Shown piece after piece: positions 3,051 through 39,716 of a stretch of 64,000 nucleotides of DNA. The position numbers were made by a program, and so were the translations under genes. The stretch is from Blasia pusilla (lineage: Eukaryota): contig CM114271.1 of NCBI GenBank assembly GCA_050084515.1, forward strand, positions 22,878,001 through 22,942,000, read 5' to 3'. Each line of letters starts with the position of its first letter. Positions within the stretch are counted from its first letter, which is position 1. The notes below the pieces were generated by a model. The model did not search any database and was not told where the DNA came from. It saw only the letters and a list, made by a program, of their open reading frames with translations.

Positions 3051-4329
3051 CTATGGAGGGGCCTTATTAATGAGGAATATGTTATGCTAAGTGGCATTGC
3101 TAAGGATCATTACAACATCTGCATATAACTCTTGTTTTCTTTTCCTATCAAAGTGGATTCCCCTATTAATTCACCACTCATAATCTCCTCTCATGGGAAT
3201 CCGCTGGAGCCTTGGTACTCCCGCTATACTTTGGGAAGCAACATGAGAAATAGTTAAATCACAAGGCTACCTTTGGGAATGATCACAAACCTTATTATTC
3301 GACGGAGAGACCAGGTGGAATTCCCAACCACGTTTACGAGACTTGGTTGGTGGGGACCGCCCAACTAATCGAACTAATCGAGCTTACGATTTCTCCTAAT
3401 TGATGTTATATACTTATATTTGTAGGATTTGAAGATCGAGAAATTCTTCCTAAGACTTGTTTCGGGGTTTAATTTTGCACCATTCTCCCCCACCTCATTG
3501 CGGTTTTTCACTGTGCATTCCATATTCAAGTAGAATGGCCAAGCAGAATTTCCAATCGTGTTTATGAAGCGTGAGTGGAATCATGAATTTATGACTCTAG
3601 ATATCGAGGATACACTTGCACGATTCTTCTCAATTGCGTTTTCAGTTGTATATTCGGCCTTGTGAGGTCTACCTTCCCTTTCCCAATATGCAACCTTTTG
3701 ATAAGAGTGATAGAGCAATTTCTGTTTTGTACTAAACCAGTACTCGGGGTGCCAGGGACTTTCTGAGTACTCCTAACAGGATGTTTTTGATACTTTTTTT
3801 CAGCATTTTAGTCTCAACCTATCTTTTTGAAGCTTACTTCTGAGGTCCGGTTTTGAACCACTCTTCCCTACCTTATTCTGGTTTTTTGTTTGTGCATTCC
3901 ATGTTCAGATAGACTCAAAACTCGATGCCTCTACTAGTCGTATAAGACTTCATTTTAGACTTGAGTTTCAATCCTCATTACTGATCATACGGTCCACTAA
4001 GACTACCATGCCAAACCTACTATCTAAGTATAGGGTTTAGTGCCTGTAGTGCTGTGTAACTTGCTTGGATTGTAGACTTGCTACTACTTTGTCTCGTACA
4101 ACAAGGGTACAATCATCCTATTGCTCAGAATCCTTTAGTTGAACTTGAACAACTCGGACTTCAATTGCAAATAGGTAGTAGTATTACCTCAAGGCCGTAA
4201 TAGGTACTCAAGGCATACACACTTCAACCAACCGTATAAAGACTTGAATATATCCTCGTATTTACACCCTAAGTTCTTACTTTATCCACTTTCCCATCTT
4301 CCCAAATGCCTCGGGCACCCACGCCTAGG

Positions 4330-7300
4330 GCTATCACAAGGACTAACAACATCGATAACAAAATTTTGCAGGTTGGTAATAATCAACCAGCAATTAACAG
4401 AAGATCCAAATGGTTAATGTTAAGAAAATCTTGATTACAACAATGCAGAACACATGCACGAGCTGGATAGATACTCAAGTCTAAACTAGCATGCAAACCA
4501 GTGTGTTATCACTGGTCGATAGCTCACAACCTACTTTGTAAATGGCAAGATATTGGCAGCAAGTTCATACCCAGTATGTAGTGTTGTGGGTATTATGGTG
4601 TCGTGATTTACTGCACGCATTGTACCCTCATGTGCACTGTTAAATTGTCAATTTATCCTCCATATGCACTCTCTAATGGGTTCCTCATACCATATACAAT
4701 CCTCCAAGAAGGAGAATTCTATGCATGTGATCTCTATACCACCAACCAGCCTCGGAGTAGCTTAAATGTGTACATGACACCCGCTTATATACGAAGCATT
4801 TTATCGCCAAATCCTCTTCATTTCCAACTTCTCTCTATCCTGGAATCCAAAATTGGTATTGTTAGCAAATTCAATGGCTTTCACAAGGGGTTTTTCAACC
4901 CTAAATCATTGTTGGATTCTCCTCTTATTTCTTGGAATCTTGAATCAGCTTCAAGGGACAAATTTGAATCCATAATAGATAGCATAAGACCAGTGGTGGT
5001 TACTAACCTCGTTGTGAATGATCTTTATAAGGACTACAAGTGCTTGCTTGAATTACCTAATCCATCTTCTGGATTGGTCGTTCTTCTTGGTTCAGTGGTA
5101 ACATCTATACTCAAAGTTGCCCAGGAAAAGGGCCAAGTAACACATAGCATGTCATTTAACCAATACCAACCAGAGTTGAATATTTTACAGGTTATTACAT
5201 ATTGTCTCCCTACTAGAACTAAGAAATCCTTAGACATTTTTTACAACAGCTGTACATTTTTCAAGAAAGAAGCTAATAGTAGAGAACGCTTCCTAACAAA
5301 TTCCATGGGTGCATCTATTGATAAACGACTTAATATAGAAACCGGAATATTCCCATTTCTTTTCTCATATTTAAAATTTTACTTTCTTGTTACAAGCTCA
5401 TTCTCGGATTATATGCGACTGAGGGTCAAAACAAATATTCAGCCCATTTTCCTCATACAAATTGTACATTTTAGTCATGTTCTAGTTACGACAGTCAATA
5501 TCAGTACCACGTCTCGTTCCTTCATTCTCAATAAAGACCTAAGGAAGGAGAACTTTGTGAGGAGGACTTGTACCACCATTTGTCTAAACACTCACTCAGT
5601 CCACAGATACCTAGTAGCCCATGTTGGCATAGGAAACACTTAACAGACCTAAAAGCCATGGTCCATAAGTGGGGTATGCCAAACTTCTTTCTAACTCTCA
5701 CCATTGATGAGGTCTCCACCACACGATGGCCTGAGATAGCACACATAGAAAGCATCCTCCTAAAATTCAATCAAGAATTCACCTAGCGTGATGGGCCTTC
5801 CGAGTGCCCACAACTTTTTCATACACAACTACATACCTTCCTTGCTACCTATATATTCTCTGGACCTCAATTATTAGAATGTATTCTAAACTATGTCATT
5901 ATGTATGATCTTCAAGCTAGATAGAGGCAGCATACACTACCACGTAATTTTTTGGATGCACAATGATGACATCGATAGGATTACATCAAATATTTGTGCT
6001 TATATTCCAGATCCTAACAGTCTTGTGCCCAGCCATCCACAACAATCCTGTGACTCACTTCTCCGTAACCTTGTTACTACATAGCAATTACATAGGTGCA
6101 AAGGAGGAGTATGTATTATCAGGAAAAAGCAAGGCCAATGACCTTATTGTCATCTAGGATTCCCTGCATAAGTGAACATGGACACTATTCCCTCCATTGA
6201 TCCCAAGTCCATGCGTTGGACTTACTTTAGGCCATCGCATTTGCATCGCAATGTCATCCCCTATCATCCCCTTATCTTGTTATTGTGGGGTGTCCACATG
6301 AACATCCAGAGGGTCACCAACATTGACTGGCCCTCTTACCTTATCAAGTATGCATTGAAATCTAAACCAACAGGTTCCTTAGATATTGATACTGAGTCCG
6401 CTCGCTGCTTGGGACTTGAAAGCTTAGATAAGGTGAGACTTAAACTTGTTTCAAGAGTTGTATTCAATCAATCCATATGTTCCACTGAAGCATCATTATC
6501 ATCAATGCAGATAAAAATTATTTTCAGATCTCAATCTGTTAGATACATTGACTCTAGTCCACCATCACGTCGTACATCTCTTTACAAGCTTACATCTGTT
6601 CCTTGTATGCACCATGTAGAGCTCTATTGTGCTAGACCAACTTCCCTTGAAGCTCCTACTTTTTCTAAATCTTGGTCAAAAAATCATCTTACAAAACAAC
6701 ACCAAAATAATCCCTTGGTTTACTTGTAGGAATTGACTCCTTGGGTAACACAATCTATAAATCATACCGCCTAGTACGGTTTACTGAGTTCCATCCACTT
6801 CATCAATGGAATAAAATTTTCTATATAATTATGCTTCACCATATTCACTTTAGATCTGAAACCACACTCCTAAGCTCTACTTCATCTAAGTGGACTTATC
6901 TTCATGAGTGCTTGCACCGCAAATTAGTTTGATATAGAAAATCTCCTTACTAATCATGCCAACCAACACTTATGGAGCAAAATACATACTGCAGAGATTC
7001 TGTCAAAAACGTTAGAAATTCAAAAAAGCCCACTTAGAAATTGATTTGAGTAACATCGTCCATGAGGTTCAACCTGAGCCAACACCTACACAACCACACC
7101 AAACTCCTTTACATGATTCACCATATATAAGTCTACTCAATTCTGAGCAACAACGTCTCTTCTATACAATCACAACGATGCACTCAAAAATCCTCGTGCT
7201 CACAGGTTCATCAGGATCGGGAATTTTTTTTTTCTTAAACTATAGGTGCAAACATTGGGATTCTTTAGGTTCCGAGTATCTATTGGCGGCAACAATAGGA

Positions 7301-8090
7301 ATTGTAGCAATACGCGTACATGAGCAAGCTACAATAGTTCATTCTATATTATGTATTCCCATACGAGGGGAAGTACCTGATATGCATCCCACATCAGATG
7401 CTTCCACAAAACCTAGAGATGCTAACATCATTATCATTGACGAATGTTCCATGTTGACTCCACGTTTCTTACAAATTTTGTCTATGAGAATAAATCAAAC
7501 ATTAGAATCATATTCCCATAGTTCATTCGCAAATAAACTACTTGTATTAGTGGGTGACATGGCACAATGTCAATTATCCCTGTCCACATTACAACTGATG
7601 CTCCTTCGCTGCCAGAATTTAAAGACTGGCTTGAAGATGAGAACTTCCACCAACTGCCCTTTGTTGCTATTGGTTGTGTTGTGATGTTGACATCTAATAT
7701 AGATATTAGATTCCAAGTCGCAAATTTTGCTCACGCTGTATTACTAACTTTAACTACAATGATCATGACAACTCTTTGACCTCTATTTCAATCAAGATTA
7801 GGACATCAGGTAAGATATTAAAAATCACAAGGATAACCTTTTGTATTCTTAGATACAGCTCTAGTAAAAATTTCTACTAAAAAACTTTCCCTCTCACTCT
7901 TGGCTATGCTATGACAGGTCATAAGAGCCAATGATTGACAGTCCCTAGCAAATGTTTGCTAGTGATTAAATTTGTATTTGCACTCGGCTTGCTATATGTA
8001 ATGCTTTCTCATGCATGGTCTCGACATCAAATGAGAATATTAGGCACTTTAGACCAGTCTAATTTTATCACTTTTGGGCATATTGCTTAG
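4330..8090 (+). mobile_element. Helitron A: degenerate Rep/Helicase (divergent, Helitron2-like lineage)
   Basis: Rep motifs DLKAMVHKWGMPNFFLTLT, RGSIHYHVIFW (HUH), YLIKYALK. PIF1 motifs GSSGSG, IIIDECSML, LVGDMAQ, FPLTLGYAMTGHKSQ, LLYVMLS. Frameshifts and stops; internal helicase deletion near 7567 relative to Helitron B. Confidence 0.88.
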
Positions 8091-8130
8091 GGTTTCCTTT
8101 TGGAGTTCTATTTCCCATTTTATCTGTGTA

Positions 8131-9174
8131 GGATGGCATCTAGCAACTCCAACTCTAGATCAAGGGCACAACAACCATCAGGTAGCCAGTTTGGTCAGTC
8201 CATGCTAGTCTCTATACACCTTTAGCATGCTATGACACAAACCACTCAGTCTGGTCACACTACACCTAACCAAGGTGTTGCACAAGACTTCAGCATCTCG
8301 TCTCAGAATGCATGCATTGGCTCTTCCGGCACTCAGATTAGCATCTTCCAACTTAATCACTTCCATTCCTACATTCTTTCATCTTCTGTTTCTAACTATC
8401 CCACAGGTACCTTCAAACTATATGGACTTTGCGTCAATGATACTCAATGATATTGAGAGTATCCCTGATGCATATACACCAAAGTTTGTGCATTCCACCG
8501 AAACCATATGCGCTTTTATGACAACTTAGGACTAGTTCCTGCCTTTTGGGAGAAAGGTGTAACAAGTCGGAAGATCCAAGTTATCATCATACAGGGGAAG
8601 GAATGGGATCATAAATTTTGTTTGCACAACAAAGACTCACCTAGAACATGTAACTTACATCTTCTCATTGGTAGCCTCTACCTAGTTTATACTATGTAAA
8701 TTGATGAGCTTTGAACACTGACTCCCTTATAATTCCACATTTTCTTACCTTTCTTCTCTTTGCTGCAATATTTCAGGTATACCAAAGGAGGCATTGCGTC
8801 ACTTACAAGTTGAATTCTAGAAGATAACCTTGACTCGTTCCCAAGCCAATTGACTATTCAACACTGCATCCAATTGCATTAGGCTAGACCAGCTCCGTAC
8901 TCTTTGTCATGAATTCCACTTGCCTCTTCACATTGTCATATAACTGACTTCCACAAAATCCAATCACATGATATCTAGGATGAGACTTGCTTACGCCAAT
9001 GGCGAGCTACGTGACTTCATGCCTCCTTCCAAGGATGAGCCCCACATTGTACCTATCCTCCATTAATTGGAAATTTTCAAATTAGAAGTCAATTCCACAA
9101 ATGTTGTCATTGATCTAGATACTTTCCAGCCAAGAACTGTTGCGAATTCACTAGGAAAGCGGAAGTGCGCCTAA
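8131..9174 (+). pseudogene. Helitron A accessory gene 1 (spliced, unknown function)
   Basis: Exons ~8407-8649 and 8777-9174 with GT/AG borders. Peptides DNLGLVPAFWEKGV and IPKEALRHLQVEF..IRLDQLRTL..GELRDF match Helitron B at 44541-45164. Confidence 0.6.
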
Positions 9175-10189
9175 TCTATTGTTGAAGTATGTTAACCACT
9201 ATTATACTTTACAATTATTCCCGCTTTCGGGGCTTAACCACCACTTTAGTAATTATTACATCCTAGTTCTAATGCGGTCTTCTTCTTCTTTGCATTTGCA
9301 GATTTCAAACACGTGACATGTACCACTCTTTCATGGGAATTTTACATCACTATATGTCAGGGGATTTTATGGAGGATTTTCATGTTTTCGAATAATAGTT
9401 CTCTATAGTTTAGACATCTCATCAGTTCCTCGACTTCTTCGGCTATTTAAAATGACACTCTTGCACACATCTAATTGCTAGAGATACTATGATAGTCTTG
9501 TACTTTTGGCACTTTGGCTTATCATTTGTGTTCAGATTTTCCGATGCATAATATTAACCATCACTTATTTTAATTCTTATCAGTCTACAATACTTACTTG
9601 AACAATTTTGGTGGTGACTGCTTGTATGTATTCTTAACTCTATGATTACTTCACTCAACACACAACATTCACTTAACATTTTCAGAGTTTCACTTATTTT
9701 GCTTCCCTATGACATCCAATGTATAACAAATGTATCAACCTTCCAATTCATCCATTTTTTTATATGAATGCATTATATTCCAGTCCACTACTTTTGTTTC
9801 CATAATGTCGTACAATTCACTCAGGTTCTACTATCTCATGCTTCATAAATTTCCTTTTACACTATACCCATATCCCAACTTATTGAACTTGAAAATCTTT
9901 TCCAGTACTTTGCCTAAATTATATACACCTCTCTATTGCTATTTTCTGTATCTGTTTCTTCCACATCATTTCATACATTGCTATTTCATTTGCCATTTTC
10001 TCTTAGAACAGCAATCACTTCTATTATTCCATGCTCTTCACTCTAAGATTCCACAACTATTTCTTTCTTACACCCAACATTTTCTGAAAGCTGATTTGTT
10101 ACGGCCACTTCTTTCCTTTTGTCTTCACACTTTGCTTTCATTGTCTCCTGAATTCATTTACATTTCTAACCATTCTACTTCTTGCTTTT

Positions 10190-10601
10190 ACAGATGCAAA
10201 CAAGAATGCCGTCCAGGAGGCCCCCTTACAAGGAGAATTAGAGTCAACCAGGTGTTGAAAGCTTGCATCAACATCCGCGGCCACAACCACACATCCTTGG
10301 AGATCACTATTCACCAATTTCACTGCAAGTGTACAAGAATGTTCTTAGCAAGAGAGACGACCTTCACGTTCAGATCGATTCCTTAAAGGCTCGTGTGTCT
10401 AGGCTATCAGGACAGCTAGCTTCCCTGTTAGATAAAACATCATCTATTAAGCTACAAAATGCTCAATATAAACAGAATTTGGAGGAAGCTACTTTCTACT
10501 TCAAAGACTTTCTCAAACATACTACCTCTATTGTAAATAGTGATGCAAAGTTGGAGCTACAAGTCTCCCTGATAGAATCACTACTCCGCAAATACACATG
10601 A
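10190..10601 (+). pseudogene. Helitron A accessory ORF 2 (predicted coiled coil)
   Basis: Heptad-like ORF 10263-10601 (LKARVSRLSG..IVNSDAKLELQVSLIESL) resembles 46260-46487 in Helitron B (LRLRVSRLLN..IANDPKLPLHSNIIQSM). Confidence 0.45.
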
Positions 10602-11739
10602 GCACTACTTCATCATGTAGTATCATTCCTGATGTTTAGTAATGCCGGACTTCTCCAATACATGTTGAATCTTGTTGATGTTAGCTGATGTTTTACCACC
10701 ACTATTACATGTCAAAATTTTCTTGCAACCGCCTATTGTTTGTACTACCACTGCTAAAGGTGGAAATTTTGTTACATGTTATTTTCCTACCAGTAGTGCA
10801 TGTGGAAATTTTGTTGCAACTACAAGTTGTTTTTACTCCCAGTGCAACAATGACTCTCCTTGAACGATAATCTATCTTTCTGTCATTTACATGCTCTGTG
10901 TTATGACATGTTTTTTGGTTGTCACTTTTCATGATCATGTACTATATTGTCATTGACTCTTATCTTCATTTACTACTTGCAGTTTGAATGCACACTACCA
11001 GTCCACAAATTTCAGTAACTATATATATATATATATCGTAATTCTGATATTTACATCAGCCACTATGTCAGATTTTAGCATCCTTGTATACTCTAAAGCT
11101 TAACACATTTTTTCCTACTTTAAGCTTCATACCGAACTTACTTGACAACATTTCTCCCAAAATTTTGAAACTCGTAATGTTCCACATAAAATATTATCAT
11201 TACACACATCGTCCAACAAATTCACTCAAAACAATAGACACTAATACTTGTAAAATGTTCAAAGCCAAACCTACAACTATTATTCATTGCCGCACTTCAC
11301 AGATCCCTGGACCCTTCAGCGTACACAAATCATGCATACTAAATGCAAAACAGCTCCTATAACTCCTAAGGAATTGGTGTATTTGGGGCCGCTCTCCTCT
11401 TGTCGACTTAGGGCCTATATCTAGCTCCCAAATCTCCATTGCGACTACCGTACGACTCTCCGGCATGAGTGTCGGTGGTTGCTATGGTGCAACCCCATCT
11501 CGGATAATAGAACTCTCATCTCCACGTGCAGTACCCGGAACCACACTCGATATTGTGGCTATCATCTCCTAGCGTACATGCAAAACATCCCAAGAAGTCC
11601 AAGGGTGTCTTTCCCGATCATCCATGGTGTGTCAATCTCCTCAGGTCTCGCCTCCAGCCGCTGCCTCAACCGCCTCGGTAGGCATGGGGCTCACCAACCC
11701 AACAGTTGTGATCAGTCGCGTCCTCAAACAACGCTGCTC

Positions 11740-12665
11740 AACTACTCCTAAGCTGAAAATCCATGTCAAGCAGTTCACGTCCATTTCTTGACCCAAGACA
11801 TGACGTCGTGATACCTCTGATAGTGACAGTATTGCCGTCACTCCTGTGGGGAATCCCATTGCTCGCTCTCGCTCATCGGCGTTGGGCTCCACCAACCTCT
11901 GTACTTGGTCATCCCAAACCAAGCCAGGTCCGGCCCTCTTGAATGCATAAGAAGCAGGAAAACTCACAAATGTGGGAAAGGCTGCTCGTGGCCTCCCAAT
12001 CCTGTTGACCATAGTCAACGGCGGTCGATCATCTAGCCTCACTACTTGTGATCGATGGCCTGGATCCAATATAAAATCCACCAACAAATTGGAGGGGCAT
12101 TCCACTCTTGCATATGCCCTTTGTAACACCTTGTGTGGTATCAAGTTGGTCCACCAAAGATGCGGGCGATGGGCTCGTGAACCCACACTCGCTACATCTA
12201 ACAACACTGCCGGGCCGATCCATGCGCGCACCTGATGTGCACTCGTCACCACGTGGGACCTCAAATCGCCCACAATTGGCACATTCTCCAAAATGTTGCA
12301 AGATCCGCATCATCTCCCAAAACAACCTGGACCGAGTGTCAACTTACCCGCTATCTCGTCCAACACTCGATTGGCCCTAACACGGCCAACCAACAATGAC
12401 CAAGTTTATGGTCCCTAACCGCTCCAAGTTTTGTGCCCCCAACAATGAAATGTCCCTCGGTAGGAAACTCTGGTAACCCTGAATGACATAGAAAAAGTCG
12501 AGGAAACGGAGTCGTAACAGCGCAACATGGTGACTTAAAGTGTGCCTCGCAACATCATCAATCTCCACATACAGGTATTCCTGCACGAGCACTCCAATGT
12601 GCAAAACTACAGCTAACTCAGTGTTGATCCCTCCAAAGAGATCCAACATCCGAATACCCTTCTTT
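11740..12665 (-). pseudogene. Retrotransposon-encoded C5 cytosine DNA methyltransferase domain, DNMT3-like (copy 2)
   Basis: Motifs in canonical order: LDLFGGI (I), YVEID (II), DI (III), VGWPC*G (IV; CAG>TAG stop), LFWE (V), ENV (VI), RAHRPHLWWTN (VIII), ERERAMGFPTGVT (IX), RRHVLGQEMD (X). Confidence 0.92.
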
Positions 12666-13049
12666 GGAATGCACCACACAATTGGGATGGTGTCCAAAGG
12701 GGTCATAGCAACACTCTTGCCTACTTGGGATTCCTCTAACTTGTCACACTCTAGTGCAAACGTCTGGCTCCATACGGTTTGCACATGCTCAACGGCTAAG
12801 CATCGAAGCTCCTCAATCGAGCCCCAAAGCGGCACCTCTCCTCCACTAACTGATGCGGCTACCATGACACTCCTCTGCATAGAAATGTCAGGAACAGGAA
12901 TATCCTCTTCATGGACATGTCCCTAAATCAAATCACTAGGCCAAGTGATGGCACTGCTAAATGCTGCTAAGGTTGCCATCTCTCTTGGCCATTGCTCGAT
13001 CACTGCATCTGTGAATCGAACGGGTAATGAGCTAAGGCGCTCATCACCT

Positions 13050-13420
13050 GACTGCCATCTTAGTTTGTAGGACATTGACTCCTCCCACTAATCCAGGGAA
13101 AACCCCATCGGGTATAACACTGTTTCACCAACCAAGACGTCGTAGGACTCTGCATCAATCACTATCGCCTTGGCTCGCACCACAGACTCATCTATAGGAT
13201 GTCCCCGGTGAATCCTCACCACGACCTCCTATCGGGTGATATATTGTGTGGTACTTGCTCCAATCCAAGATGTCTGTATTCGGAATGGACAACGCTCCAC
13301 ATCGGCTCTCGTCAAACCCAATCTTCTCAATGACGCTTTCCCCAACATCAGGGGTTGCGCTCTTGAATCCAACAAGACGCGATGCGGACTAAAAGCTCTA
13401 CCTCCGGGACTCACCAACTA
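13050..13420 (-). pseudogene. Retroviral-type aspartic protease of element A
   Basis: RVLLDSRAQPLMLG (decayed D-S-G) and downstream SYDVLVG motif. Confidence 0.75.
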
Positions 13421-14242
13421 GAAGACCTCTCCTCGGTTATCCTGCAACACAACACCAGGAGAAGCCACCGCATGCTCTATCGCGGATCTAGCGGGCATCT
13501 CCGCCATCTTAGTAGCCGCAGCCTGCCATGAATCTGACCTGGACGGCCCGAGCATCCGCTCCAAGGGCAGGTCCATCACCTCCTCTACAATCACCTTTGT
13601 CGTGCGCATACACATCGCTACACAACATACATCGTTGTCATTGAACACACACACACAAACACGCACGATCCCATGCTAACTCATGGCATCCAAACAACGA
13701 GACAAGAAGTACTAAAATATCTCCAATAAAGTAAGATCCAATCTCTCTACACCATCTCACACCATAGCTCTCAAAGATATGCACTCTCTCTCATGTCAAA
13801 CCAAACCCACTCTTCTAATGCGAGGCTTGGGTTACACTCACAAGGCAACGGACCATAGGTCCGCCGCCTCATGCCAAGAGATTCAACAAAGAGAGAATGA
13901 GCTCTCAAGCTCTTTCTCTTGGAGGTATACTCCCTTCCCTCTCCCAAGCTCACACAAACACAAGCAAGCACGGAACACACACACAAACACGCACAATCCC
14001 ATGCTAACTCATGGCATCCAAACAACGAGACAAGAAGTACTAAAATATCTCCAATCGCCCCCCTAGCTGGTGGTTAGGTCCCTCTAACTCCAGATAGCCC
14101 TTTATCCCTACCTACCACGATATACATCTCTAGGATGCTAAGAGCAGAAAGGTCGGGTGCTCATGTGGCCCAATCGTTAGTCGCCTTCCTGTCATCCATG
14201 TCATAAAAAAAGTCGGAATCAAAACCTACCTAGTATCTCCGC

Positions 14243-14390
14243 TATGTACATCTGGGACACATCCATCGTCCCCAAGGAACCCTAGTGAGAGGTGGCGTCA
14301 GACATGCCATATGTCAACCTCTCGAACATCCATCGTAGACTAGCATCGTGACCGCACTACGGGAAAAACCACACAACATACAACGCAAGC
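14243..14390 (-). pseudogene. PHD finger at the integrase C-terminus
   Basis: Translation RCMLCG..MLVYDGCSRG*HMACLTPPLTRVPWGRWMCPRC, a C4HC3 pattern with one C>Y change and one TGG>TGA stop. Confidence 0.85.
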
Positions 14391-14399
14391 CCGTAGGAA

Positions 14400-15690
14400 C
14401 TACAACTAAGCTCGGATCTAATGTACCATCAATGTTAGGAAGGTGACATGGTGCACAATTACGCACATGGTCCTTGCATACCATACCATCGCGTCCCTCC
14501 AGCAAGAGAACATCGAATGGCCAAATGTCACGCACTCTCAAGATAGTGCGCCCTGCAGTCACATCCAACGTCCTCGGTGCCGTCTATTGCAAGTAGACAT
14601 AATCTCCCAGATGAAACCTCTGGATAGTTGGTCGATAACCATCACCCCGAATAGTCGCATACCTCAACGTACCCTGATGTTGCGCAATCGCCAAGTTCTC
14701 GAACGCCATGCGCATCACTCTCTGAAACAACTCAGCCCTCTGAGAACATGCTCGCATCCATACATATGGGTCATCAAGGTCCAGCACCTCACCAGCATCT
14801 CGACGAATGGCCACATGTAAATTTGGTTCTTGGCCATAAAGTAGCAAGTACGGTGAAAAATACGCTAAGGATGTCTGTCTGCTGAATCTGTATCTCATCG
14901 CCAACCACAGCAACTAGAGGTACCAATCTCCTAGGTGACCTCTCTTCAAGCCATACTTGCGTAAACCCCTCTTCACCATCTGCACAACTCTCTCCGCTAA
15001 TCCATCCGCCTCGAGATGATCTCGCGAAGTCGTGTGGTGGTCGATCAATGCCTGATCACACAAGGCTTGGAACTCACCGCAAAACTCGGTACCCTGGTCT
15101 GTCAACACCTGAGCCGATGCGCCATAATGACTCAGCACTCTGTCAAGGAAGGCATAAGATACTCCCTCACTTGCTTTGTCAAGCAATGCAACCAACTCGA
15201 TCCACTTCGAGAAGTGCTCGACCATCACCAACACATAACGACTGTGATGCTCCATCAAAGGCAAAGGTCCTGCAAAATCCAAACTCCATCTATACCCTAA
15301 GCCCATGATCAATAATGGATGCAAATATGGAGTTGGAGCATTGAACGATGCTCGGACCCGATCACACACCATGCATCTGGAAACAAACTACTGAACGTCA
15401 GTCTACATGCCTCGCCACCAATACTAAATCTGGAGCAAGCTGTATGTCCGGTTCATCCCAAAGTGACCCAACTCCTAGTGGGCATGCTGCACTAATCGTG
15501 CTCTCTACAAAGGATGTGGCACTAGGCGTACTCTACCATCCTCCCAAACCCTCAAAATATATATCCCCTCCCAACGGAACCGTCTGGCCCGCTGTAGGAT
15601 CCGATCCCGCTCTCTAGCACCCACGGTGCTCTTAACGCTGCAAGTACGAAGGTACTCTAAGACTACTCCATCATTATGAATATCTCGCAC
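14400..15690 (-). pseudogene. Integrase (rve core) of element B
   Basis: RWSLDFAGPLP, VEHFSKWIELVAL, VLTDQGTEF, ADGLAERVVQMVK (D,D,E), FSPYLLLYG, FHLGDYVYLQ. Confidence 0.92.
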
Positions 15691-16499
15691 CTATCATCTC
15701 CTCACTCCCCTCGGGATCCAAGGACTCTACACTAGACCTCGCCATCGAAGTCTCCACACTCTCAAGCTCTCTCTCTTGGAGGTATACTCCCTTCCCTCTC
15801 CCAAGCTCTCTCCATGGTAACCTATTCTCCCAAGTCACCTCCTTGGCTCTTGACCTGATGTAGGAGGTCAAGGGCCGCTTACCAAAATTACAAAGTCGAT
15901 CATATATTCAAATGGTACTTACCTAAAATAGTAAGTTTCTCAATATGGCTCCAAATGAGCCAAAACAAAGGGTAAACCTGCTCTCTCAGGTTTCTCGGGG
16001 TCTTAGCAAGTCATCCTCAACCTAGTGAGTGTGTTCTCCACTATTCACAAAGGCGCTTTACTAGATCTCACCGATCTATCCTAAAAGACGTGACACCTTT
16101 GAACGTGATGCAGGAACTCCAACTCCACGCTCACATAGTGTAGCGGCCAGTCGAAAAGCCTCGGCGGGCGTACCTCCCAATGTCATAACATCGGAAGTAG
16201 AAAATAAAGGAGCGCGGTACACAATGGTGGCCGCCCCCAACAACGTGCTCGACACTGGCCCCTCTTGAGCATCAACAATAGGAGTTATCGCACTCGCTTC
16301 TTCCCTCGCCCTCTGTGCCTGCACACCAACAACATCACCAACTCTCCAAGAACTCTGATCAGGACCCATTGATGGGGTCCTCATCGCCTCGGAAAATATA
16401 AAAGATGGAGGAAGCCTAGTCTGTTTCCTAGATTCCCCTCGCTGTGGATCCAACTCTGCGGCAACTCCATACGTTACATTTATGGTGCCCTCAATCTGG

Positions 16500-17960
16500 G
16501 TAACCTCGCACATCCAACCATCATCCTCCATATCTCTGCTTGCTCCATATGATGTCTATGCCACGGCTATGGCATCGGGTAATCTCAATGCCATAGCAGC
16601 AATCTGCTTATGTAGCTGATGTATGTGAGCAGCCATCCTAGTCTCACGCCCGACATCTCCCTCGATGCGTTTAGATGATGGGACTGTACCTCCTCCATGG
16701 GCAGCTCCACCACCTTGTCGAGAAACTCCAGCTCCTCATCCCCCAACAGACCACCTGGTGCATGATCTCTAGCCCACCCAGATTGGCTACCCGCTCTGGT
16801 GCCCTCTATGGCCCTCGGTATGGACGTAACTCTAGATGTAAACAGAAATACCTAGCCTATGTATGACCATACCTCTGACAATAGTCAGACTGATAACCTC
16901 CTTGTGCAGTACCATCTCCTCCTCCATGCTGAGGCATACATCCATGACCCTAACGAGTGCAATCACGTTGATGATGGGCTCCACCACATGACCAACAAGT
17001 AATCGTAGGCGGCTACTGCTAAGCTGCATATAAAGGCGCAGGTCTCTGTGGAACGGCCTCCCGATATCCTCCCTGAGCTCGTGGTGCCACAGTCAACCTA
17101 TCTCGGAGTCCACGTTATTGCACACGTGGTGCAAACAATCATGACTACTCTCGCCTAGAACCCATGGTGGCTACGCTCTCCTCCGCCATGTTACGCTCAA
17201 TGTTCTCGGCAGTCCTAAAAACATCTCTCAACCTAGGGGAGGTGTTCATAAGAAGCACCACCTCCTGCACCTATGTCCGCAACATCCGGTCCAGCATCGC
17301 GTACCATGATTTGATAGCCTGAGCCTCTGTCACCCCCTGAGTGATGTTGATCAACCGGCACAAGCGAGTGTAAGCCTCACGCAAACTCTCACCCGGGCGC
17401 CTCTGGAAGTCGTGGATGCTCCGCAACTTCTCCGTGCGTACCCCCTGGTAGCTCGCCCTCAACTCAGCGCAGAACTCAACCACGGGGTTGAACTTGGGAC
17501 GAACGCGATTAGATAGTGCAATTGCTCCAATACGAGTGACCCCTCCTAAAACATCACTAGTGGAAGAGGAAGTAGCCTCTCCAGACTCCTCCTACCCATC
17601 TGGGAACGGCTCCGTCCATGACATATAGTGTGGGTCATAGTAGAGTCGCCATGCCTCAATCTCCTGGGCATATCTGTGGGAGAACTCATGGTAATCATCC
17701 ATGGGCGTCCCCTCTAAATGTTAGAATATACCGTTCCATGTTGTAAACGTTTTGAACTCTCTAGAGTTCCTAGCCCGTTGTGAGTCACACCAACTCTACA
17801 ATGAAGTCGTGTAGCTCTATGGTGCCTACAACACCTACAAACCACTCCTGGTAAACCCTCCACAGCTACTCTTAGGTCCACTACCTCGCCTCTCAAAATC
17901 CTGAAAGGATGCCGTGATGGCCCTCGTGCCCCTCTCATACGATCACTCTCAATCTCGCGA
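16500..17960 (-). pseudogene. gag of element A (retrotransposon gag domain + zinc knuckle)
   Basis: ORF 17271-17483 is gag-like; CWSCGGAHHQRDC (CX2CX4HX4C) at ~16958-16999. Confidence 0.8.
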
Positions 17961-19379
17961 GTAATCCCTCAATCACTCAAACTAAACATGCGGCACTCAA
18001 TCTACACTCTCTCACTGAGACGTGTGTTGTGCGGCAACAAGAAGCATGGTGTGGAAAATCAACTGATCTATCCTCTCATCGATAAACCATCCTCAACTCT
18101 TGACATCCCACACAGGTCTATGTCCCCTAAATCCATACATCATGGATGCTCCTAGCATGAGCACGAAACCCAATATCCCAAATAACTTCCCAATACCCAA
18201 AGATTCCTCTCACGTGCAGGGTAAGAGACGAGAATGGGTAACTTGACAATAATGTCAATGTCACTCCTCGACAACTGCAAATCTCGACCCCGACTCAATC
18301 GTGAAGACAACACCTCCAATCAGCAAGTCGTATTCCTCATGTACTGATGCTACTCAAACCTCCTCGATGTGCGGTGGAGGTCCAACCGTCCGGTGCGGCA
18401 TTGGCCGCATGGAACGGCTACAAACGGCACGGCACTCGAGAATGGGGTGCGGCACTTGGCAGCATACCCTCCTCGATCAAAAATTCACACGCTCTGCTCC
18501 GTAGGGAAGGAGCGGCTCCGCGATCGAGACGGTGTGGTGCGGCCACGAGTGGCACGGCACAACCATCGGTGGCGTTGTGGATACGGGTGTCACGGCACGG
18601 TACTCGATCATCGTCAAGCGGCTACCAATCACAACATAGAAACATGAAATGAAAACTCAAACACCATAACCCGAGGTCACCTACCATCACTGGTTGATGA
18701 CGAAACTTCGATGACGGTGGCGGCAAAACCAAAGAACGTGGTGGCGGCATAAGTTAGAGAATCAACGGTGGTCGTGGAAGACCCTCCACTCCGTAATGGG
18801 CGGCAATGGCAACCAAGGACGACAACCGACGAACGCGGCTCTAAGCAGCGCTAGGCAACGGCGACGGCCGATGGTGGATAGTGGACGGTGGACCGTTGAC
18901 GGTGATGGTTGACCATTGATGGTGACGTCCGACCAATGATGGTGATAATTGACCGTTTACGATGACGATGACGGCGACGGCGGCGGCCGTCGCCGGCGTG
19001 GTGGCTTCTTTAGGGTTTGAACAATTTAACCCTAAAAATTGCCTAGCAATGGCAGTTTTGCAATATTGACCATAATGTTTTAATTGCAACTCCAAATTGC
19101 ACAACGTGCACAACTTCATGATGTACAAGGCCATCAAACAATATTTTGAATCGAACTTTCCAATAAAAACTGAAGGGGACTGTTGTAAGGCCAAATGTCT
19201 CTTTCTCCTACACAAAATTTGGCAGCGCTTCCGCGCACCACTCTTCCACACTAAAAATTGGCAAAGGAAACATCACAAGTAAGCGGCTCTTGCTGTGGTG
19301 AGCACTCCCATGAATTTCTGAACAGGGAATATGATCCCCAACCTGAAAAACCAGCGAGTGACTAGCGAGCTCCCCCATG

Positions 19380-19902
19380 AAACTCTCTCACTCACTCATT
19401 CTCTCTCACAACACCATAGTTCCCACATGTGTGCACTCTCACATGTTTCTTTCAATGTCAAACCAAATCCACTCTCCTAATGAGAGGCTTGGGTTACACA
19501 AACAAGGCAAGCAAGACCATAGCTCCGCCGCCTCATGCCAAGAGGTTCAACAAAGAGAGAATGAGCTCTCAAGCTCTCTCTCTTTGAGGTATACCCCTCC
19601 CCTCTCCCAAGCTCTCTCCATGGTAACCTATGCTTCAAAGTCACCTCCTTTGCTCTTGACGTGATGTAGGAGGTCAAGGGCCACTTACCAGAAATATAAA
19701 GCTGATCATATAGTCAAAATGATACTTACCTAAAATAGTTAGTTCCTCAATATGGCTCCAAATGAGCCGAAACGAGAGGGAAATCTGCTCTCTCAAGTTT
19801 CCGAGGGCCCCAGCAGGTCATCCTCAACCTACTGAGTCTGTACTCCACTTCTCAAGAAGGCACTCTACTAGATCTCACCGATCTATCCTAAAAGACATAA
19901 CA
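19380..19902 (-). repeat. 5' LTR (partial) of element A
   Basis: Clearly similar to 15757-16095 and 13760-13950; ends ..AAGACATAACA on +. Confidence 0.8.
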
Positions 19903-20149
19903 CTATGGATTTAAGTGATTTTTGCAAATTGCTACTTGCGGAGGCACAAAAGAAAGGCGAGCCCATCCTGCGGAAATAATAACACACCAAACGAACATAC
20001 ACAACATTTCGATCATTGAAGTATCTACAACGTAATTTCACTCCATTCAAGATCATTCAACATGTCAATACTTGGGCACTTCATCATACACTAATTTCAT
20101 TCACTCTACTTTTACAATTCCAATTATTTTTGCAAACTTGCTATTCCAT

Positions 20150-23100
20150 TGAATCTTATAGATATGCGTGATTTTTGGAAGGTTCTCTTTGGCCAAGCGC
20201 AAAAACGGGCCGTTCATTTGAGAGAATGGAAATTCTCAAACTAAAGAAGAGGACTTACCATCAAGGATATGAAAAGAATAATGAAAGTCCTTCTAGTTCA
20301 ACTATCTCTACTTTGGGGGCCCAACCCAGTTCAACTATTCTAAATATTGAGATTTCAACTATACAAAGTCCATTCACGAGGTTAGATTTGGATGCCTTAC
20401 ATGTCGCGGCCCTCATAACCAAACGAACACCAAATAGGTGCCCAAAAAAACATCAGAACTCCAGTGGACTCATGCTACGATGATCGCGCTTTGGAGAGGC
20501 ACAATCATCATAACGTGAGATGAAAGGCACCAATCTAAGACAAAACGCAAAACAAAGTTTTTTGTTTCATGCATTGGTGGTTGCGACCAAAAAACCTAGA
20601 CCAAACGAAAACCAAGACCTGAGATGAGTTGAGTCTTAGAAGGTTAGTTACCAAAGAGGTGAGAACGAGTTTTGGCACACGACAAGCGTTCGGGGAATTG
20701 GACTGTGTTTCTAACCATAACGTTTAGCTCCAAGATGCATTTGGGACAAACAAGATCGCATTGAAAATATTATCTCAAGACGCTTCCAACGCACCAAAGA
20801 TCTCAGCAAACGCATAACTACTAGCTGAGACGTTTTTTTGAAAACTACTATGAGAGCAATCGAGTTAAGGGCCAATCTGAGGGGCCCGATTTTCTTTTCC
20901 GAAAGTTAGGGAGACCCCGGAGATCCCTATAAGCACTGGTAAGGGGGAGTCTCTCCAATATATCTTGGAACACAAATCCCACTTTGAGCACCAAACGGTG
21001 TCTCAAGGGCATGGGATGGACCCAGAGTTTGGCGTTGGAACTTGAAACCCAAACCTAAGCCAAGAGAGTGGATTTCATAAGCCACACTTGGATTCCGACC
21101 CGTGATTCATTTTGTGTGAGTCTAGGTTAGGGACTCATTGGATGTCCATCAGACAGTTGGAACCGCCAGGCACGAGAGGTCGTTTGATGTTCGTGGATCG
21201 ACCAGAAAGTCTGTCCCAAGTCTTTCAAGACTTGCTTGTGTTGTAAACTGTGAAACTAGGAAGGTTGAGCTTGATGGGAGGCCGAGTCAAGAACTCGGCA
21301 AGTTAGAACAGCTGATTGATCCAGACCCGACTAACATCAGTGTGTGTTTGGATGTAGATCAACGTTGAGAGCGTGACCTACTGAACGCACGCTTCCGCAA
21401 CAACAAAGATTAACGTTCAAGGAGAGTGGGAGCACATCATTACATCTGCTTTCTTTTTATACATGTCCTTTCCTAACTCTTCAATATTCATTTCTTGTTT
21501 TGGTCTCTTTTTTCTCATCTATTTATATTCTTTTAGATCCTTGAACAATCATGGAGTGATGAAAGCTGAAAATCATGGAGTTGGTCTTGGAGCTAGACAA
21601 GATGAATTTATTCAATGTGATGTCATAGTTCAAGTGTTACATGCTTTTACTAAATTTTTTCCAAGAATCCAATTACCAAACATTTCACTCCATAAAGTTA
21701 TTGAGAACGCTCCTCTGGCCAACTACTTATGTAATACCAAGAGTTGTGGTATGTGCGATTTCCCCTATTATGAACAAACTATACGTACATCATCATAAAG
21801 TTGTCAACAATGGTTCGACTCTTCGCAATATTAGGGATGAAGTAACACTTAGAGCAGATCCCATGCCTTTTGTATCTCATGGAGTTATGTTATCAACAAG
21901 AAGGGACACTATACCAATTGCAAATACTTCTACAAGTTGTCTTGAGTCTAAAGTTGATAAAGTTGTGAGAGTATATTCATTTCTTAATCTTGCAAGGAGA
22001 CCAAAATTCCAAGAAAGTGATATTAGGAAGTCACGGTTCTGAAGGAATTTCCATCATACGAGTGGTTGTCATATGCTAGGTCTTATGATAGAAATACGCC
22101 CCTCATATCATGCTTTACATTGGACTATGAGGTGGTGAGAGGTACAAAGTATCATGGCTCCCCATATGGTATGTATTGTGCCTATAGGAAACTAAATTTC
22201 CCCCTCTTGAAGTCGAATCCTCTATTCTTCAAATCGTTGATTTCTAGTGTTGGTCCTAGAAGCCTTTATTTTCTTACTCATGCTCAGGCATACAATTCCG
22301 CACTTCAAGTCGCATCAATTGGAGTGTATGTAAACAAGCAACTTGATGGCATTGGACACTTTAGGGTTCAAGGTAGGATCTATCATTCTATTAGAGCCTA
22401 ACATCGTGGTATAGGGGGTCATTTTTCTCAACTCTACATTCATGATATTGCAAATAAATTGGAGAATTGTGAAAGGGTTAATGTTATGATCTTAATTTGG
22501 ACATCTTGAGAGGGCTACAAGAGATGTTACTCGAATGTGATCCATATGTGAAGATCTTTTTCAAATAGCATCTAAAGCAAGTGACCCTAATATGTGGGTC
22601 ATCTTGAAGGCAAGTAAGAGAGGCCTCAATGCAAAGTTTTATTAGTTGCCAACTGCTCTAAAGTAGCATTGTACTAAGTGATGGTAGTGAACAAATTGAT
22701 CACCGTGATATAATCATACGACTATGTATAAGGAGGAAGAGTAAGGCGTATATCAGACCTAAGAAAATCATATATTCCATAATATTTGGTTATATTATTT
22801 GTCTTTAGTGAAGCACATTGGAATCTTGGAATACCAACCGCAAGGCTTGAAGACTCAATAACACCCCAACATGCAATAATTATTCATCATGGGGAGGCGA
22901 GAGATATTGGATTTTCATATGATTTCATGCATGAGGATAGAGTTGAGGATGATAATATTGAGGAGACAAGGACAAAAAGTCTTACAACCTTGCAATTTGC
23001 ATGTTTTCAACTTCCAACGCGTATTGGCGGCGAGGATGAAAATTGACTAGAATAGTTTGGTCAACTTATTCAACATTATATGGTTGATCTTAATGCTATT

Positions 23101-38316: not shown

Positions 38317-38386
<70 letters not shown>
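38317..38386. repeat. (TC)35 microsatellite, LINE right flank
   Basis: Read directly. Confidence 0.98.
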
Positions 38387-38390
<4 letters not shown>

Positions 38391-39450: not shown

Positions 39451-39716
39451 AATGCATTTTTGGTCATTTGGTGTTGTTGCATAATACTTACATTCGTTAG
39501 TGAGTGTGGCTACATGGTGCGGCCACGGGAGTCCTGAAATCAACGACTTGGTGCTACATTGCTGATATACTCTACTTCCTTGTGAGTATTTTAGTTGCAA
39601 TATGGATTCCATGAGGAGTCGTTTGTGACACTTTCTTCCATACTCTAAACCCATTCTCCCTAGTAAGACTCCCTTTAGATTGTTACACTCCAAGGAGATT
39701 TGCTGCCTTTTTTTTA

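What the first reader, a model, noticed from the sequence alone, without database searches (positions are those of the whole stretch)
14243..14400. PHD finger fused to the integrase of the same family: a reader-plus-writer retrotransposon
Seen: integrase in nested element B, which shares LTRs with the DNMT element, ends in a C4HC3 PHD finger where chromoviruses have a chromodomain. Known: many PHD fingers read H3K4 state, and animal DNMT3 is guided by the PHD-like ADD domain. Inference: the intact family would encode both a histone reader and a DNA methyltransferase, possibly coupling chromatin-targeted integration with de novo methylation. The two domains sit in two different deleted copies here, so their linkage is inferred from shared LTRs.
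Basis: partly seen in the sequence, partly recalled or inferred. Interest (0 to 1): 0.85.

Follow-up and report, generated by a model that had tools for sequence, protein, structure and literature searches.

The report
Dead PHD-integrase copy, DNMT retrotransposon family
A broken copy of a jumping gene whose integrase ends in a histone-reading PHD finger sits inside a sister copy that carries a DNA methyltransferase; intact relatives elsewhere carry both, a pairing built from two parts that are each already known in such elements.

Summary
The PHD finger is real. It lies on the minus strand at 14248-14382, in frame with and at the very end of a Ty3/gypsy integrase (Pfam PF00628, 28.3 bits, E 1.8e-6; PDB best hit CHD4 PHD2, 7.5e-13). 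This copy is dead: it has 10 in-frame stops in 488 codons, one of them inside the finger, and the third zinc Cys is Tyr.

It belongs to a 2,498-bp deleted element (E2, 16095-13598, 4-bp target duplication). E2 is inserted between gag and protease of a truncated DNMT3-bearing element (E1). The terminal repeats of E1 and E2 are 84-87% identical.

Public proteins carry protease-DNMT-RT-RNaseH-integrase-PHD in one ORF (P0011, P0308). The closest integrase-PHD lineage has the DNMT directly upstream of RT (L001). In the host's own runs the family is highly repeated and transcribed, and nearly all other copies lack the stop inside the PHD.

Functional coupling of reader and writer is untested. In the closest relatives an ORF boundary separates them.

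Both parts are already published separately: Gypsy-Dnmt3 in Klebsormidium and PHD-integrase Gypsy in Chlamydomonas. I rate this a new member of a known kind, of moderate interest.

The parts
14248..14382 (-). Decayed PHD finger at the C-terminus of the E2 integrase. 7 of 8 zinc ligands remain: the third Cys is Tyr (14335-14337) and there is a TGA stop at 14314-14316.
   Evidence: Pfam PF00628, 1.8e-06, 28.3 bits. PDB phmmer, CHD4 7.5e-13. Alignment with relatives. Ligand coordinates.
14245..15684 (-). Integrase-PHD reading frame of E2. It holds the H2C2 zinc domain (about 15349-15507), the DDE core (about 15025-15294, with D, D and E present), a GPY/F-like motif (14587-14607) and the PHD. There are 10 in-frame stops in the 488 codons read from 15708.
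   Evidence: (63.5% identity to P0001 over 480 aa).
13598..16095 (-). E2: an internally deleted, nested copy of 2,498 bp. It consists of a 5' repeat part, the integrase-PHD frame and a 3' repeat block.
   Evidence: E1's frame is interrupted here. AAGG lies on both flanks at 16096-16099 and 13594-13597. A joint 13591->16094 skipping 2,502 bases appears in DNA contigs and RNA reads of other copies.
15759..16095 (-). E2 5' terminal repeat. The first ~288 nt form 'U' and the next 49 nt are the start of 'A'. It is cut off by a deletion that joins it to the RNaseH-integrase linker.
   Evidence: 87% identity to 19566-19903. Alignment. 48 of 49 nt identical to E2's own 3' A copy. RNA reads of other copies run on unlike the window beyond 15762 (loose ends).
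13598..14055 (-). E2 3' repeat block: R1 (13975-14055), A2 (13759-13951), R2 (13647-13727) and a tail (13598-13646). R plus tail makes the 'B' unit. The arrangement is B1(truncated)-A2(lacking U)-B2.
   Evidence: The two R copies are 98.8% identical, and A2 is 84% identical to E1's A. Joints of the tail to the U start and of R to the tail are seen in other copies.
19411..19903 (-). E1 5' terminal repeat (U+A).
16106..17841 (-). E1 gag, with a CCHC knuckle near 16962-17000.
   Evidence: tblastn of Marchantia P0121 residues 14-538 at 37-43% identity.
12950..13648 (-). E1 resumes after E2: the end of gag and the aspartic protease region.
   Evidence: P0121 residues 527-978 align to 13648-12284 at 44%. 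P0011 residues 668-1071 align to 13390-12296; P0011 has Asp_protease_2 at residues 663-711.
11740..12700 (-). E1 DNMT3-like C5 methyltransferase domain, decayed. Motif I is at 12626-12643. The motif IV Pro-Cys is followed by a stop (12377-12391). There is a frameshift near 12294. ENV is at 12280-12288 and a motif X-like stretch at 11779-11796.
   Evidence: Pfam PF00145, 5.5e-05. PDB: DNMT3B 3.8e-05 and DNMT3A, with a weak DNMT3A hit for the C-terminal half. Coordinates.
11311..11484 (-). ORF boundary and start of the RT region of E1: a stop at 11482-11484 and a Met at 11464-11466. E1 is truncated near 11311, where G+C falls from about 0.5 to about 0.33.
   Evidence: Alignment with L001, the N-termini of P0001/P0003/P0004 and the C-termini of Marchantia P0314-P0316. 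Coordinates. Composition.

Best explanation
The feature is the mutated C-terminal PHD finger of the integrase of a dead, internally deleted Ty3/gypsy copy (E2). E2 inserted, with a 4-bp target duplication, into the gag-protease junction of a second copy of the same family (E1). E1 keeps gag, protease and a DNMT3-like methyltransferase but has lost everything from RT onward.

The family belongs to a clade of the green lineage with this layout: gag-protease-DNMT3-like, then (after a stop or fused) RT-RNaseH-integrase-PHD. It is bounded by split direct repeats (A ... B-A-B), as published for KnitGypsy-Dnmt3 of Klebsormidium.

Inferred mechanism in intact copies. The PHD is of the sequence type whose solved relatives bind the H3 tail with unmethylated K4. 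It would tether the integrase-cDNA complex to such nucleosomes, that is away from active promoters, as the chromodomain does for chromoviruses. The DNMT3-like domain, made with Gag-protease, would methylate the element's own cDNA or new insertion.

Shown: the anatomy, the homology, the co-occurrence of both domains in intact relatives, and multicopy and transcribed status in the host. Inferred: histone binding, targeting, methylation activity and any coupling between them.
For: - PHD and integrase lie in one frame, scoring above Pfam's cut-off. The best PDB hits are CHD4, PHF12, KDM5A/B PHD1, KAT6A, DPF3, PHF21A, ATXR5, AIRE, BAZ2 and UHRF1; no ING, BPTF or TAF3 chain is among the 60 shown.
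- PMC6979384 (passages read) reports KDM5A/B PHD1, PHF21A, AIRE and TRIM66 as preferring unmethylated H3K4, and CHD4, CHD5 and DPF2 as H3K4me0 readers.
- 82 of 121 fetched relatives have a full C4HC3 pattern at the integrase C-terminus.
- Nesting and target duplication.
- Repeats are 84-87% identical between E1 and E2.
- The DNMT is DNMT3-like.
- Both domains occur in one ORF in P0011, P0010 and P0308. 15 of 120 listed hits hold PF00145 plus PF00628.
- A DNMT-seeded HMMER search gave 812 hits at E<=0.001. Of its 144 new proteins, 39 hold the DNMT plus an integrase core, and 22 of those also have the PHD pattern.
- L001, a 90% relative of the closest integrase-PHD protein, has the end of protease plus the DNMT directly upstream of RT in the same frame.
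- The catalytic Cys and the ENV Glu are kept in relatives.
- Host runs: tens of thousands of contig pieces at 88-99% likeness. RNA reads in two runs (3,226 and 3,542 laid) have first mates mostly on the + strand. At 14314 nearly all other copies read another letter that gives a sense codon (X1 72558 of 73623 depth, X3 10916 of 10944, X22 102 of 102, X23 105 of 106).
- Joints of the 3' tail to the 5' U start appear in DNA and RNA. They fit the A-coding-B-A-B repeats that de Mendoza 2018 describes (figure legend).
Against: - E1 and E2 keep complementary pieces with no overlap, so the claim of one family rests on the repeats alone.
- Over the DNMT region, depth is lower than over the integrase-PHD. 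RNA is about 5-12 against 70-130. X3 contig depth is about 2,300-6,000 against 7,400-12,700. PHD-bearing copies may therefore outnumber DNMT-bearing ones, or E1's DNMT is simply more diverged than the 88% threshold allows.
- DNMT-bearing relatives without a PHD exist: 7 of the 22 PF00145 rows, with P0069 and P0090 confirmed.
- An ORF boundary, and presumably protease cleavage, separates the DNMT from the PHD.
- In yeast the KnitGypsy-Dnmt3 domain gave no de novo methylation; the authors call this inconclusive.
- No binding or targeting data exist for any integrase-PHD of this clade in the papers I searched.
- The single insertion seen here, into another element copy, is an anecdote.
Confidence: 0.8

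Rival explanations
1. E1 and E2 are related subfamilies with different content. In this genome the PHD-integrase elements lack a DNMT, or the DNMT-bearing ones end without a PHD. The 'reader plus writer' would then be an artefact of two deleted copies lying together.
For: No internal overlap exists between E1 and E2. Depth over the DNMT is 3-10 times lower than over the integrase-PHD. The PHD-less, DNMT-bearing full-length relatives P0069 and P0090-P0095 exist. E2's 3' block lacks the U part and so is not a simple copy of E1's repeat.
Against: Repeat identity of 84-87% over 339 and 205 nt meets the usual 80% family rule (recalled). The closest integrase-PHD lineage carries the DNMT upstream of RT. 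The Sphagnum gene model P0098 joins gag, protease, DNMT and an integrase core that is 72% identical to E2's. Contig depth over gag is as low as over the DNMT in X3, so low depth is a property of E1's whole 5' half and not of the DNMT alone.
Confidence: 0.13
2. The PHD does not steer integration. It could serve the methyltransferase in trans, like the ADD of DNMT3. It could recruit host chromatin factors to the new insertion. Or it could act in nuclear entry or transcription of the element.
For: The PHD is of the unmethylated-H3K4 type, like the ADD. The DNMT and PHD co-occur in two different domain orders, DNMT before RT and DNMT between RNaseH and integrase, as if the pairing itself were kept.
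Against: The PHD sits at the integrase C-terminus, the place where chromodomains direct integration (Gao 2008, as cited in PMC6673714). Among the 121 proteins fetched by then, 16 rows read RT-RNaseH-integrase-PHD with no DNMT-probe hit at all. In the closest relatives the DNMT and the PHD lie in separate ORFs.
Confidence: 0.2
3. The Cys/His pattern is a chance match, or a captured host exon unrelated to the integrase.
For: One ligand is missing and a stop lies inside the pattern.
Against: Pfam score above the curated cut-off and a PDB E-value of 7.5e-13. It is in the same frame as the integrase. It stands at the same position in 82 of 121 relatives. The stop is private to this copy.
Confidence: 0.01

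Closest known systems
KnitGypsy-Dnmt3 of Klebsormidium nitens (de Mendoza et al. 2018, PMC5890265; passages and figure legends read, figures and supplements not seen)
   Same: It is a Gypsy-type element with a Dnmt3-type methyltransferase inside its coding region. Its repeats are arranged A-coding-B-A-B rather than as plain LTRs. It occurs in the streptophyte lineage.
   Different: The paper's main text never mentions a PHD (0 occurrences) and treats the acquisition as specific to the K. nitens lineage. Here the closest named relatives are liverworts (Marchantia, Calypogeia) and Sphagnum. The integrase carries a PHD. In close relatives the DNMT lies in an ORF with gag-protease. I had no KnitGypsy-Dnmt3 sequence to compare directly.
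Chlamydomonas Gypsy-7a_cRei (Craig et al. 2022, PMC9940879; Figure 6 legend read)
   Same: It is a green-lineage Gypsy LTR element whose polyprotein is annotated with a PHD finger beside the integrase.
   Different: Its legend lists no methyltransferase. The legend's list names the PHD before the integrase, whereas here it is C-terminal. I made no sequence comparison.
Chromoviruses (Gypsy elements with a C-terminal integrase chromodomain; Gao et al. 2008, as cited in PMC6673714 and bioRxiv 2021.11.30.470311)
   Same: A histone-reader module sits at the C-terminus of a Gypsy integrase after the GPY/F region. The presumed role is to tether integration to a chromatin state.
   Different: The likely ligand is the H3 tail with unmethylated K4 rather than H3K9me.
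Animal DNMT3 with its ADD domain
   Same: A DNMT3-type catalytic domain is paired with a PHD-like reader of unmethylated H3K4.
   Different: Here the two lie about 1,000 residues apart in a polyprotein, or in two ORFs of a mobile element. No PWWP or ADD was detected. Activity and coupling are unknown.
Ginger1 DNA transposons (PMC2836005; passages read)
   Same: They have a Gypsy-like integrase with extra C-terminal domains, including a PHD in one family (Ginger1-9_HM).
   Different: They are cut-and-paste DNA transposons of animals with TIRs, no RT and no DNMT.

Membership tests
PHD finger (Pfam PF00628) | Score above the family's curated cut-off | tested here: met
   28.3 bits against a cut-off of 24, E 1.8e-06, with the internal stop read as X.
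PHD finger (Pfam PF00628) | Eight zinc ligands, C4-H-C3 | tested here: not met
   This copy has 7 of 8: the third Cys is Tyr, and a stop lies inside the finger. Relatives have all eight, 82 of 121 by pattern. The stop is private to this copy.
Ty3/gypsy (Metaviridae) LTR retrotransposon | Integrase with an HHCC zinc domain and a DDE core | tested here: met
   PF17921 at 2.2e-14 and PF00665 at 1.3e-10. The D, D and E motifs were located.
Ty3/gypsy (Metaviridae) LTR retrotransposon | Domain order protease-RT-RNaseH-integrase | tested here: inconclusive
   No RT or RNaseH is left in the window. The order is seen in the relatives P0011, P0308 and P0069.
Ty3/gypsy (Metaviridae) LTR retrotransposon | Short target-site duplication and identical LTRs | tested here: inconclusive
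   A 4-bp duplication (AAGG) is present. The ends are not plain LTRs: the 5' end is U+A and the 3' end is R-A-R-tail.
Chromovirus | Chromodomain at the integrase C-terminus | tested here: not met
   No chromodomain family was reported in the three minus-strand (coding) frames of 11000-20000 at E<=0.01. A PHD is found at that position instead.
Dnmt3-bearing Gypsy elements (KnitGypsy-Dnmt3 type) | Dnmt3-type C5 methyltransferase domain within the element's coding region | tested here: met
   In E1: PF00145 and best PDB hits DNMT3B/3A at 3.8e-05. It lies between protease and RT, as in P0011.
Dnmt3-bearing Gypsy elements (KnitGypsy-Dnmt3 type) | Split direct repeats, A-coding-B-A-B | tested here: met
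   R-A-R at E2's 3' end. Joints of the 3' tail to the 5' start, and of R to the tail, appear in other copies' DNA and RNA. The legend of Fig. 4c was read.
Dnmt3-bearing Gypsy elements (KnitGypsy-Dnmt3 type) | Sequence relatedness to the K. nitens copies | not tested
   No KnitGypsy-Dnmt3 sequence was at hand. The only named K. nitens hit (P0085) has no DNMT and is cut before the PHD position.
DNMT3 family enzymes | Intact catalytic motifs (I; IV Pro-Cys; VI ENV) | tested here: not met
   In the window a stop follows directly after Pro-Cys, and there is a frameshift near 12294. Relatives keep the Cys and Glu.
DNMT3 family enzymes | PWWP and ADD accessory domains | tested here: not met
   Neither was reported by Pfam in the window or in P0010, P0011 or P0308.

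The most novel reading that the evidence does not exclude
A widespread, still transcribed clade of green-lineage Gypsy elements, running from chlorophytes to liverworts and mosses and far beyond the single Klebsormidium lineage in print, pairs two modules. One is a DNMT3-type writer, made with Gag-protease and so perhaps packaged. The other is an integrase-borne PHD reader of unmethylated H3K4. A mobile element would thus rebuild the ADD-plus-DNMT3 logic: it lands in K4-unmethylated chromatin and methylates its own cDNA or insertion, disguising itself as long-silenced DNA.
Probability: 0.15. Interest if true: 0.75.

Novelty: new member of a known kind. Interest (0 to 1): 0.45.

Why it matters
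Retrotransposons that carry the host's own silencing enzyme are a rare twist in the conflict between transposons and genomes. So far they have been described in print for dinoflagellates and one charophyte.

This locus and its relatives show three things:
- The Dnmt3-bearing Gypsy type also lives in bryophytes and in many environmental sequences.
- It commonly carries a histone reader on its integrase.
- It is transcribed in this host.

That makes one question testable: does such an element choose chromatin by H3K4 state and then mark itself? The window's copy itself is a dead fragment and adds only anatomy.

Tried and rejected
- Whole genome: none is held for this window, so intact copies in the same genome could not be fetched.
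- Earlier notes of this scan: none for this genome.
- The first DNMT search (protease plus the N-terminal half of the DNMT, longer proteins) gave only 1 hit, Marchantia P0121. A second search with the C-terminal half gave 20.
- A plain-LTR model for E2 was rejected. The 292 nt upstream of A2 do not align with U, and the joints fit split repeats instead.
- Chance pattern or captured host exon: rejected.
- Chromodomain: not found.
- In my probe classification, short 'DNMT' hits such as P0001 residues 26-76 are only the linker before RT. I therefore counted only long hits or Pfam rows.
- The run index listed no RNA holder. The RNA evidence comes only from the laid raw reads.
- Only 14 and 18 RNA reads were 99% or more alike, so I make no claim that this locus itself is transcribed.
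- The metagenome scan with P0001 gave 2 loci. L002 is a 28% relative and was not used.
- Paper searches for DNMT together with PHD in a retrotransposon found no text that links the two. The figures and supplements of PMC5890265 could not be seen and may show a PHD in KnitGypsy-Dnmt3.
- Structure prediction and complex prediction were not run. The sequence matches to solved PHD fingers were judged enough, and an H3 tail is too short for the complex tool.
Full report
**What is at the coordinates.** The element lies on the minus strand. One frame (window:14200-15399:-) reads an integrase that runs into a Cys/His-rich stretch ending one codon before a stop. With stops read as X, Pfam reports three hits in that single frame:
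- Integrase_H2C2, 2.2e-14
- rve, 1.3e-10
- PHD PF00628, 1.8e-06, 28.3 bits against a cut-off of 24

A phmmer search of the 56 residues against PDB sequences gives 68 chains at E<=0.01, led by CHD4 at 7.5e-13.

**State of this copy.** It is dead.
- The integrase-PHD frame has 10 in-frame stops in 488 codons (8 TAG, 2 TGA) and no frameshift.
- Inside the finger the third zinc Cys is Tyr (14335-14337).
- A TGA (14314-14316) stands where 6 of 7 aligned relatives have Trp and the seventh Tyr.
- The integrase D, D and E motifs and the zinc-domain motifs are still recognisable.

**Anatomy of the block 11,300-19,903.** G+C is about 0.5 here against 0.32-0.40 in the flanks. The evidence for two nested copies is as follows.
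- Self-comparison finds 19566-19903 similar to 15759-16096 (87%, 339 nt), 19411-19614 similar to 13759-13951 (84%, 205 nt), and an 81-nt repeat at 13647-13727 and 13975-14055 (98.8%).
- A Marchantia polymorpha protein (Mp_6g11220, P0121) aligns to gag at 17841-16124. It then skips to 13648 and continues through protease and a methyltransferase to 11584, at 37-58% identity. A Sphagnum fallax model (P0098) does the same.
- So E1 (5' repeat, gag, protease, DNMT, start of RT, truncated near 11311) is interrupted by E2 (16095-13598, 2,498 bp). AAGG lies on both flanks, and E1's frame is kept across the insert.
- E2 consists of a partial 5' repeat, a deletion up to the RNaseH-integrase linker, the integrase-PHD frame and a 3' repeat block.
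- No RT or RNaseH remains anywhere in the window.

**The methyltransferase.**
- E1's domain hits PF00145. Its best solved relatives are DNMT3B and DNMT3A (3.8e-05 for the N-terminal half; a weak DNMT3A hit for the C-terminal half).
- It is broken: a stop follows directly after the motif IV Pro-Cys, and there is a frameshift near 12294.

**Do intact relatives have both domains?** Yes.
- A search with the integrase-PHD among longer proteins gave 126 hits at E<=1e-5, of which 120 were listed.
- By precomputed Pfam, 15 of the 120 hold both PF00145 and PF00628, and 7 hold PF00145 without a PHD.
- My own Pfam scans show these orders: P0011 (2,358 aa) is protease-DNMT-RT-RNaseH-integrase-PHD. P0010 and P0308 (2,811 aa) are DNMT-RT-RNaseH-integrase-PHD with the PHD at the very end. 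P0029 has a second order, RT-RNaseH-DNMT-integrase-PHD plus a tail.
- P0069 and P0090 are full-length, DNMT-bearing and lack a PHD.
- The closest relatives of E2's integrase-PHD (P0001-P0004, 60-63% identity) start just before RT. A metagenome locus 90% identical to P0001 (L001) shows the end of protease and a DNMT directly upstream, in the same frame.
- A full HMMER scan with E1's clean DNMT ORF gave 812 representatives at E<=0.001. Of the 144 new proteins, 39 hold the DNMT plus an integrase core, and 22 of these also have the C4HC3 pattern.
- In 114 DNMT segments the catalytic Cys is present in every motif IV variant printed (13 of 13 for the order with DNMT before RT; 66 of 74 rows printed for the other order). 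The Glu of ENV is present in all of those rows.

**Who the relatives are.** The nearest named DNMT hits are liverworts: Calypogeia fissa at 60%, and a multicopy Marchantia family at 53-62%. Sphagnum follows. Named integrase-PHD hits include Pleodorina, Tetrabaena, Klebsormidium and Closterium. The window is thus probably from a bryophyte-grade plant. I did not try to name it.

**An ORF boundary between writer and reader.**
- The Marchantia proteins of about 1,160-1,330 aa end shortly after the DNMT, and P0001, P0003 and P0004 begin there.
- L001 and the window both have stop(s) a few codons before a Met-Pro at that point (window stop 11482-11484, Met 11464-11466). P0011 and P0308 are fused.
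- In the closest relatives the element therefore encodes gag-protease-DNMT and RT-RNaseH-integrase-PHD as two successive reading frames in the same phase.

**The family in the host's own data.** Runs labelled with one coded organism hold 24-34% of E2's sampled words. I laid two contig sets and two RNA raw-read sets on 11300-19903.
- (a) The family is highly repeated: 201,128 and 23,297 contig pieces were laid, mostly 90-99% alike.
- (b) RNA reads cover it: 3,226 and 3,542 reads, from about 6 and 12 in 100 of each run. First mates lie mostly on the + strand, which in the usual stranded libraries means RNA of the minus, coding strand. Only 14 and 18 reads are 99% or more alike, so the RNA comes from other copies.
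- (c) At 14314 nearly all other copies and reads have a different letter that gives a sense codon. The counts are X1 72558 of 73623, X3 10916 of 10944, X22 102 of 102 and X23 105 of 106. The stop in the PHD is private to this copy.
- (d) A joint skipping 2,502 bases (E2 plus one AAGG) is seen in 6+1 contigs and in 20 and 21 RNA reads. Uninterrupted E1-type copies therefore exist.
- (e) Joints from E2's 5' start back to its 3' end, and from R to the tail, occur in DNA and RNA. This fits repeats arranged A ... B-A-B, as the legend of Fig. 4c of de Mendoza 2018 states for KnitGypsy-Dnmt3.
- (f) Against the reading: depth over the DNMT is lower than over the integrase-PHD. RNA is about 5-12 against 70-130, and X3 contigs about 2,300-6,000 against 7,400-12,700. 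Gag in X3 is similarly low.

**What the PHD probably reads.**
- The 60 PDB chains shown include CHD4/5, PHF12, KDM5A/B/Lid PHD1, KAT6A/B, DPF2/3, PHF21A, ATXR5, AIRE, BAZ2A/B, UHRF1/2, KMT2C/D, ORC1B and TRIM66. None is an ING, BPTF or TAF3 chain.
- Jain et al. 2020 (PMC6979384, passages read) report KDM5A/B PHD1, PHF21A, AIRE and TRIM66 as preferring unmethylated H3K4. They report CHD4, CHD5 and DPF2 as H3K4me0 readers.
- The AIRE and KDM5A abstracts in the listing say the same.
- From recall, not from a call: K4me3 readers carry a cage Trp two residues before the zinc His. This family has Gly there and an aromatic residue directly before the His, as in AIRE and BHC80.
- Binding to the H3 tail with unmethylated K4 is therefore my best inference. 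It is not a result.

**Mechanism.** By position, after the GPY/F-like motif at the integrase C-terminus, the PHD most likely tethers the integration complex to nucleosomes. This parallels the chromodomain of chromoviruses (Gao 2008, as cited in PMC6673714). The DNMT may methylate cDNA or the new copy, as de Mendoza 2018 proposed. In their yeast test the K. nitens domain gave no methylation, which they call inconclusive. Coupling of the two is speculation. An ORF boundary or protease cleavage separates them.

**Known or new.**
- PHD fingers in retrotransposons are called widespread (PMC6673714; bioRxiv 2021.11.30.470311).
- A Chlamydomonas Gypsy element is drawn with a PHD next to its integrase (PMC9940879, Fig. 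6 legend).
- Ginger1 transposases with a Gypsy-type integrase can end in a PHD (PMC2836005).
- Dnmt3 inside a Gypsy element is published for K. nitens and restated in 2025 (PMC12344493).
- My searches found no text that links a DNMT and a PHD in one element. The main text of PMC5890265 has no 'PHD'. Its figures and supplements were not visible to me.
- I therefore file the locus as a new, dead member of a known kind. The points that seem unreported are the reach into bryophytes, the regular pairing with a PHD, the two domain orders and the ORF boundary.

**Earlier scan note.** Note e1-2850094 describes, in a diatom, a catalytically dead methyltransferase fold between RNaseH and integrase. The relatives I collected with that domain order keep the catalytic Cys and Glu.

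Noticed in passing
window 1572-2617 (-): A second, far more decayed DNMT-like fragment of the same kind: 29-33% identity to the Marchantia P0121 DNMT, with many stops. No integrase or RT lies beside it.
   Followed up: partly
window 11464-11484 (-); L001 about 1792-1806: There is a conserved ORF boundary between the DNMT and RT: stop(s) followed a few codons later by Met-Pro, in the same phase. Marchantia gag-protease-DNMT proteins end here, and the RT-RNaseH-integrase-PHD proteins P0001, P0003 and P0004 begin here. P0011 and P0308 are fused. This suggests readthrough or re-initiation, with the DNMT made in Gag amounts.
   Followed up: partly
proteins P0010/P0011/P0308 against P0029/P0035/P0153 and others: There are two domain orders in PHD-integrase Gypsy elements: DNMT between protease and RT, and DNMT between RNaseH and integrase. 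The second order usually has 120-500 further residues after the PHD. The DNMTs of both orders are homologous and keep the catalytic Cys and Glu. The second order was the commoner among the proteins fetched (74 against 13 long DNMT segments).
   Followed up: partly
window 13598-14055 (-) and joints: The terminal repeats are split (A ... B-A-B) rather than plain LTRs. E2's own 3' block has lost the U part and most of the first B tail. Head-to-tail junctions of the 3' end to the 5' end occur in both DNA contigs and RNA reads.
   Followed up: partly
window 14245-15708 (-): 8 of the 10 in-frame stops are TAG. At five of these, Gln is the commonest residue among the 7 aligned relatives, and at two more a minority have Gln. 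This fits C-to-T decay at CAG, but I did not test the spectrum statistically.
   Followed up: no
window 38385-39452: A tandem array with a 266-nt unit, about 4 copies, 80-95% alike.
   Followed up: no
window 20402-21435 and 40665-41700: An inverted repeat of about 1 kb, 78% identical, with arms about 19 kb apart. It may be two copies of another element in opposite orientation.
   Followed up: no
window 17900-19400 (-): About 1.5 kb lies between E1's 5' repeat and the start of the gag match. It has higher G+C (0.55) and reversed GC skew around 18200-19000. It matched none of the fetched proteins.
   Followed up: no
cluster of P0003: One member of this eukaryotic retrotransposon protein cluster is filed in NCBI under an uncultured cyanobacterium bin. 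This is probably a binning error in that record.
   Followed up: no
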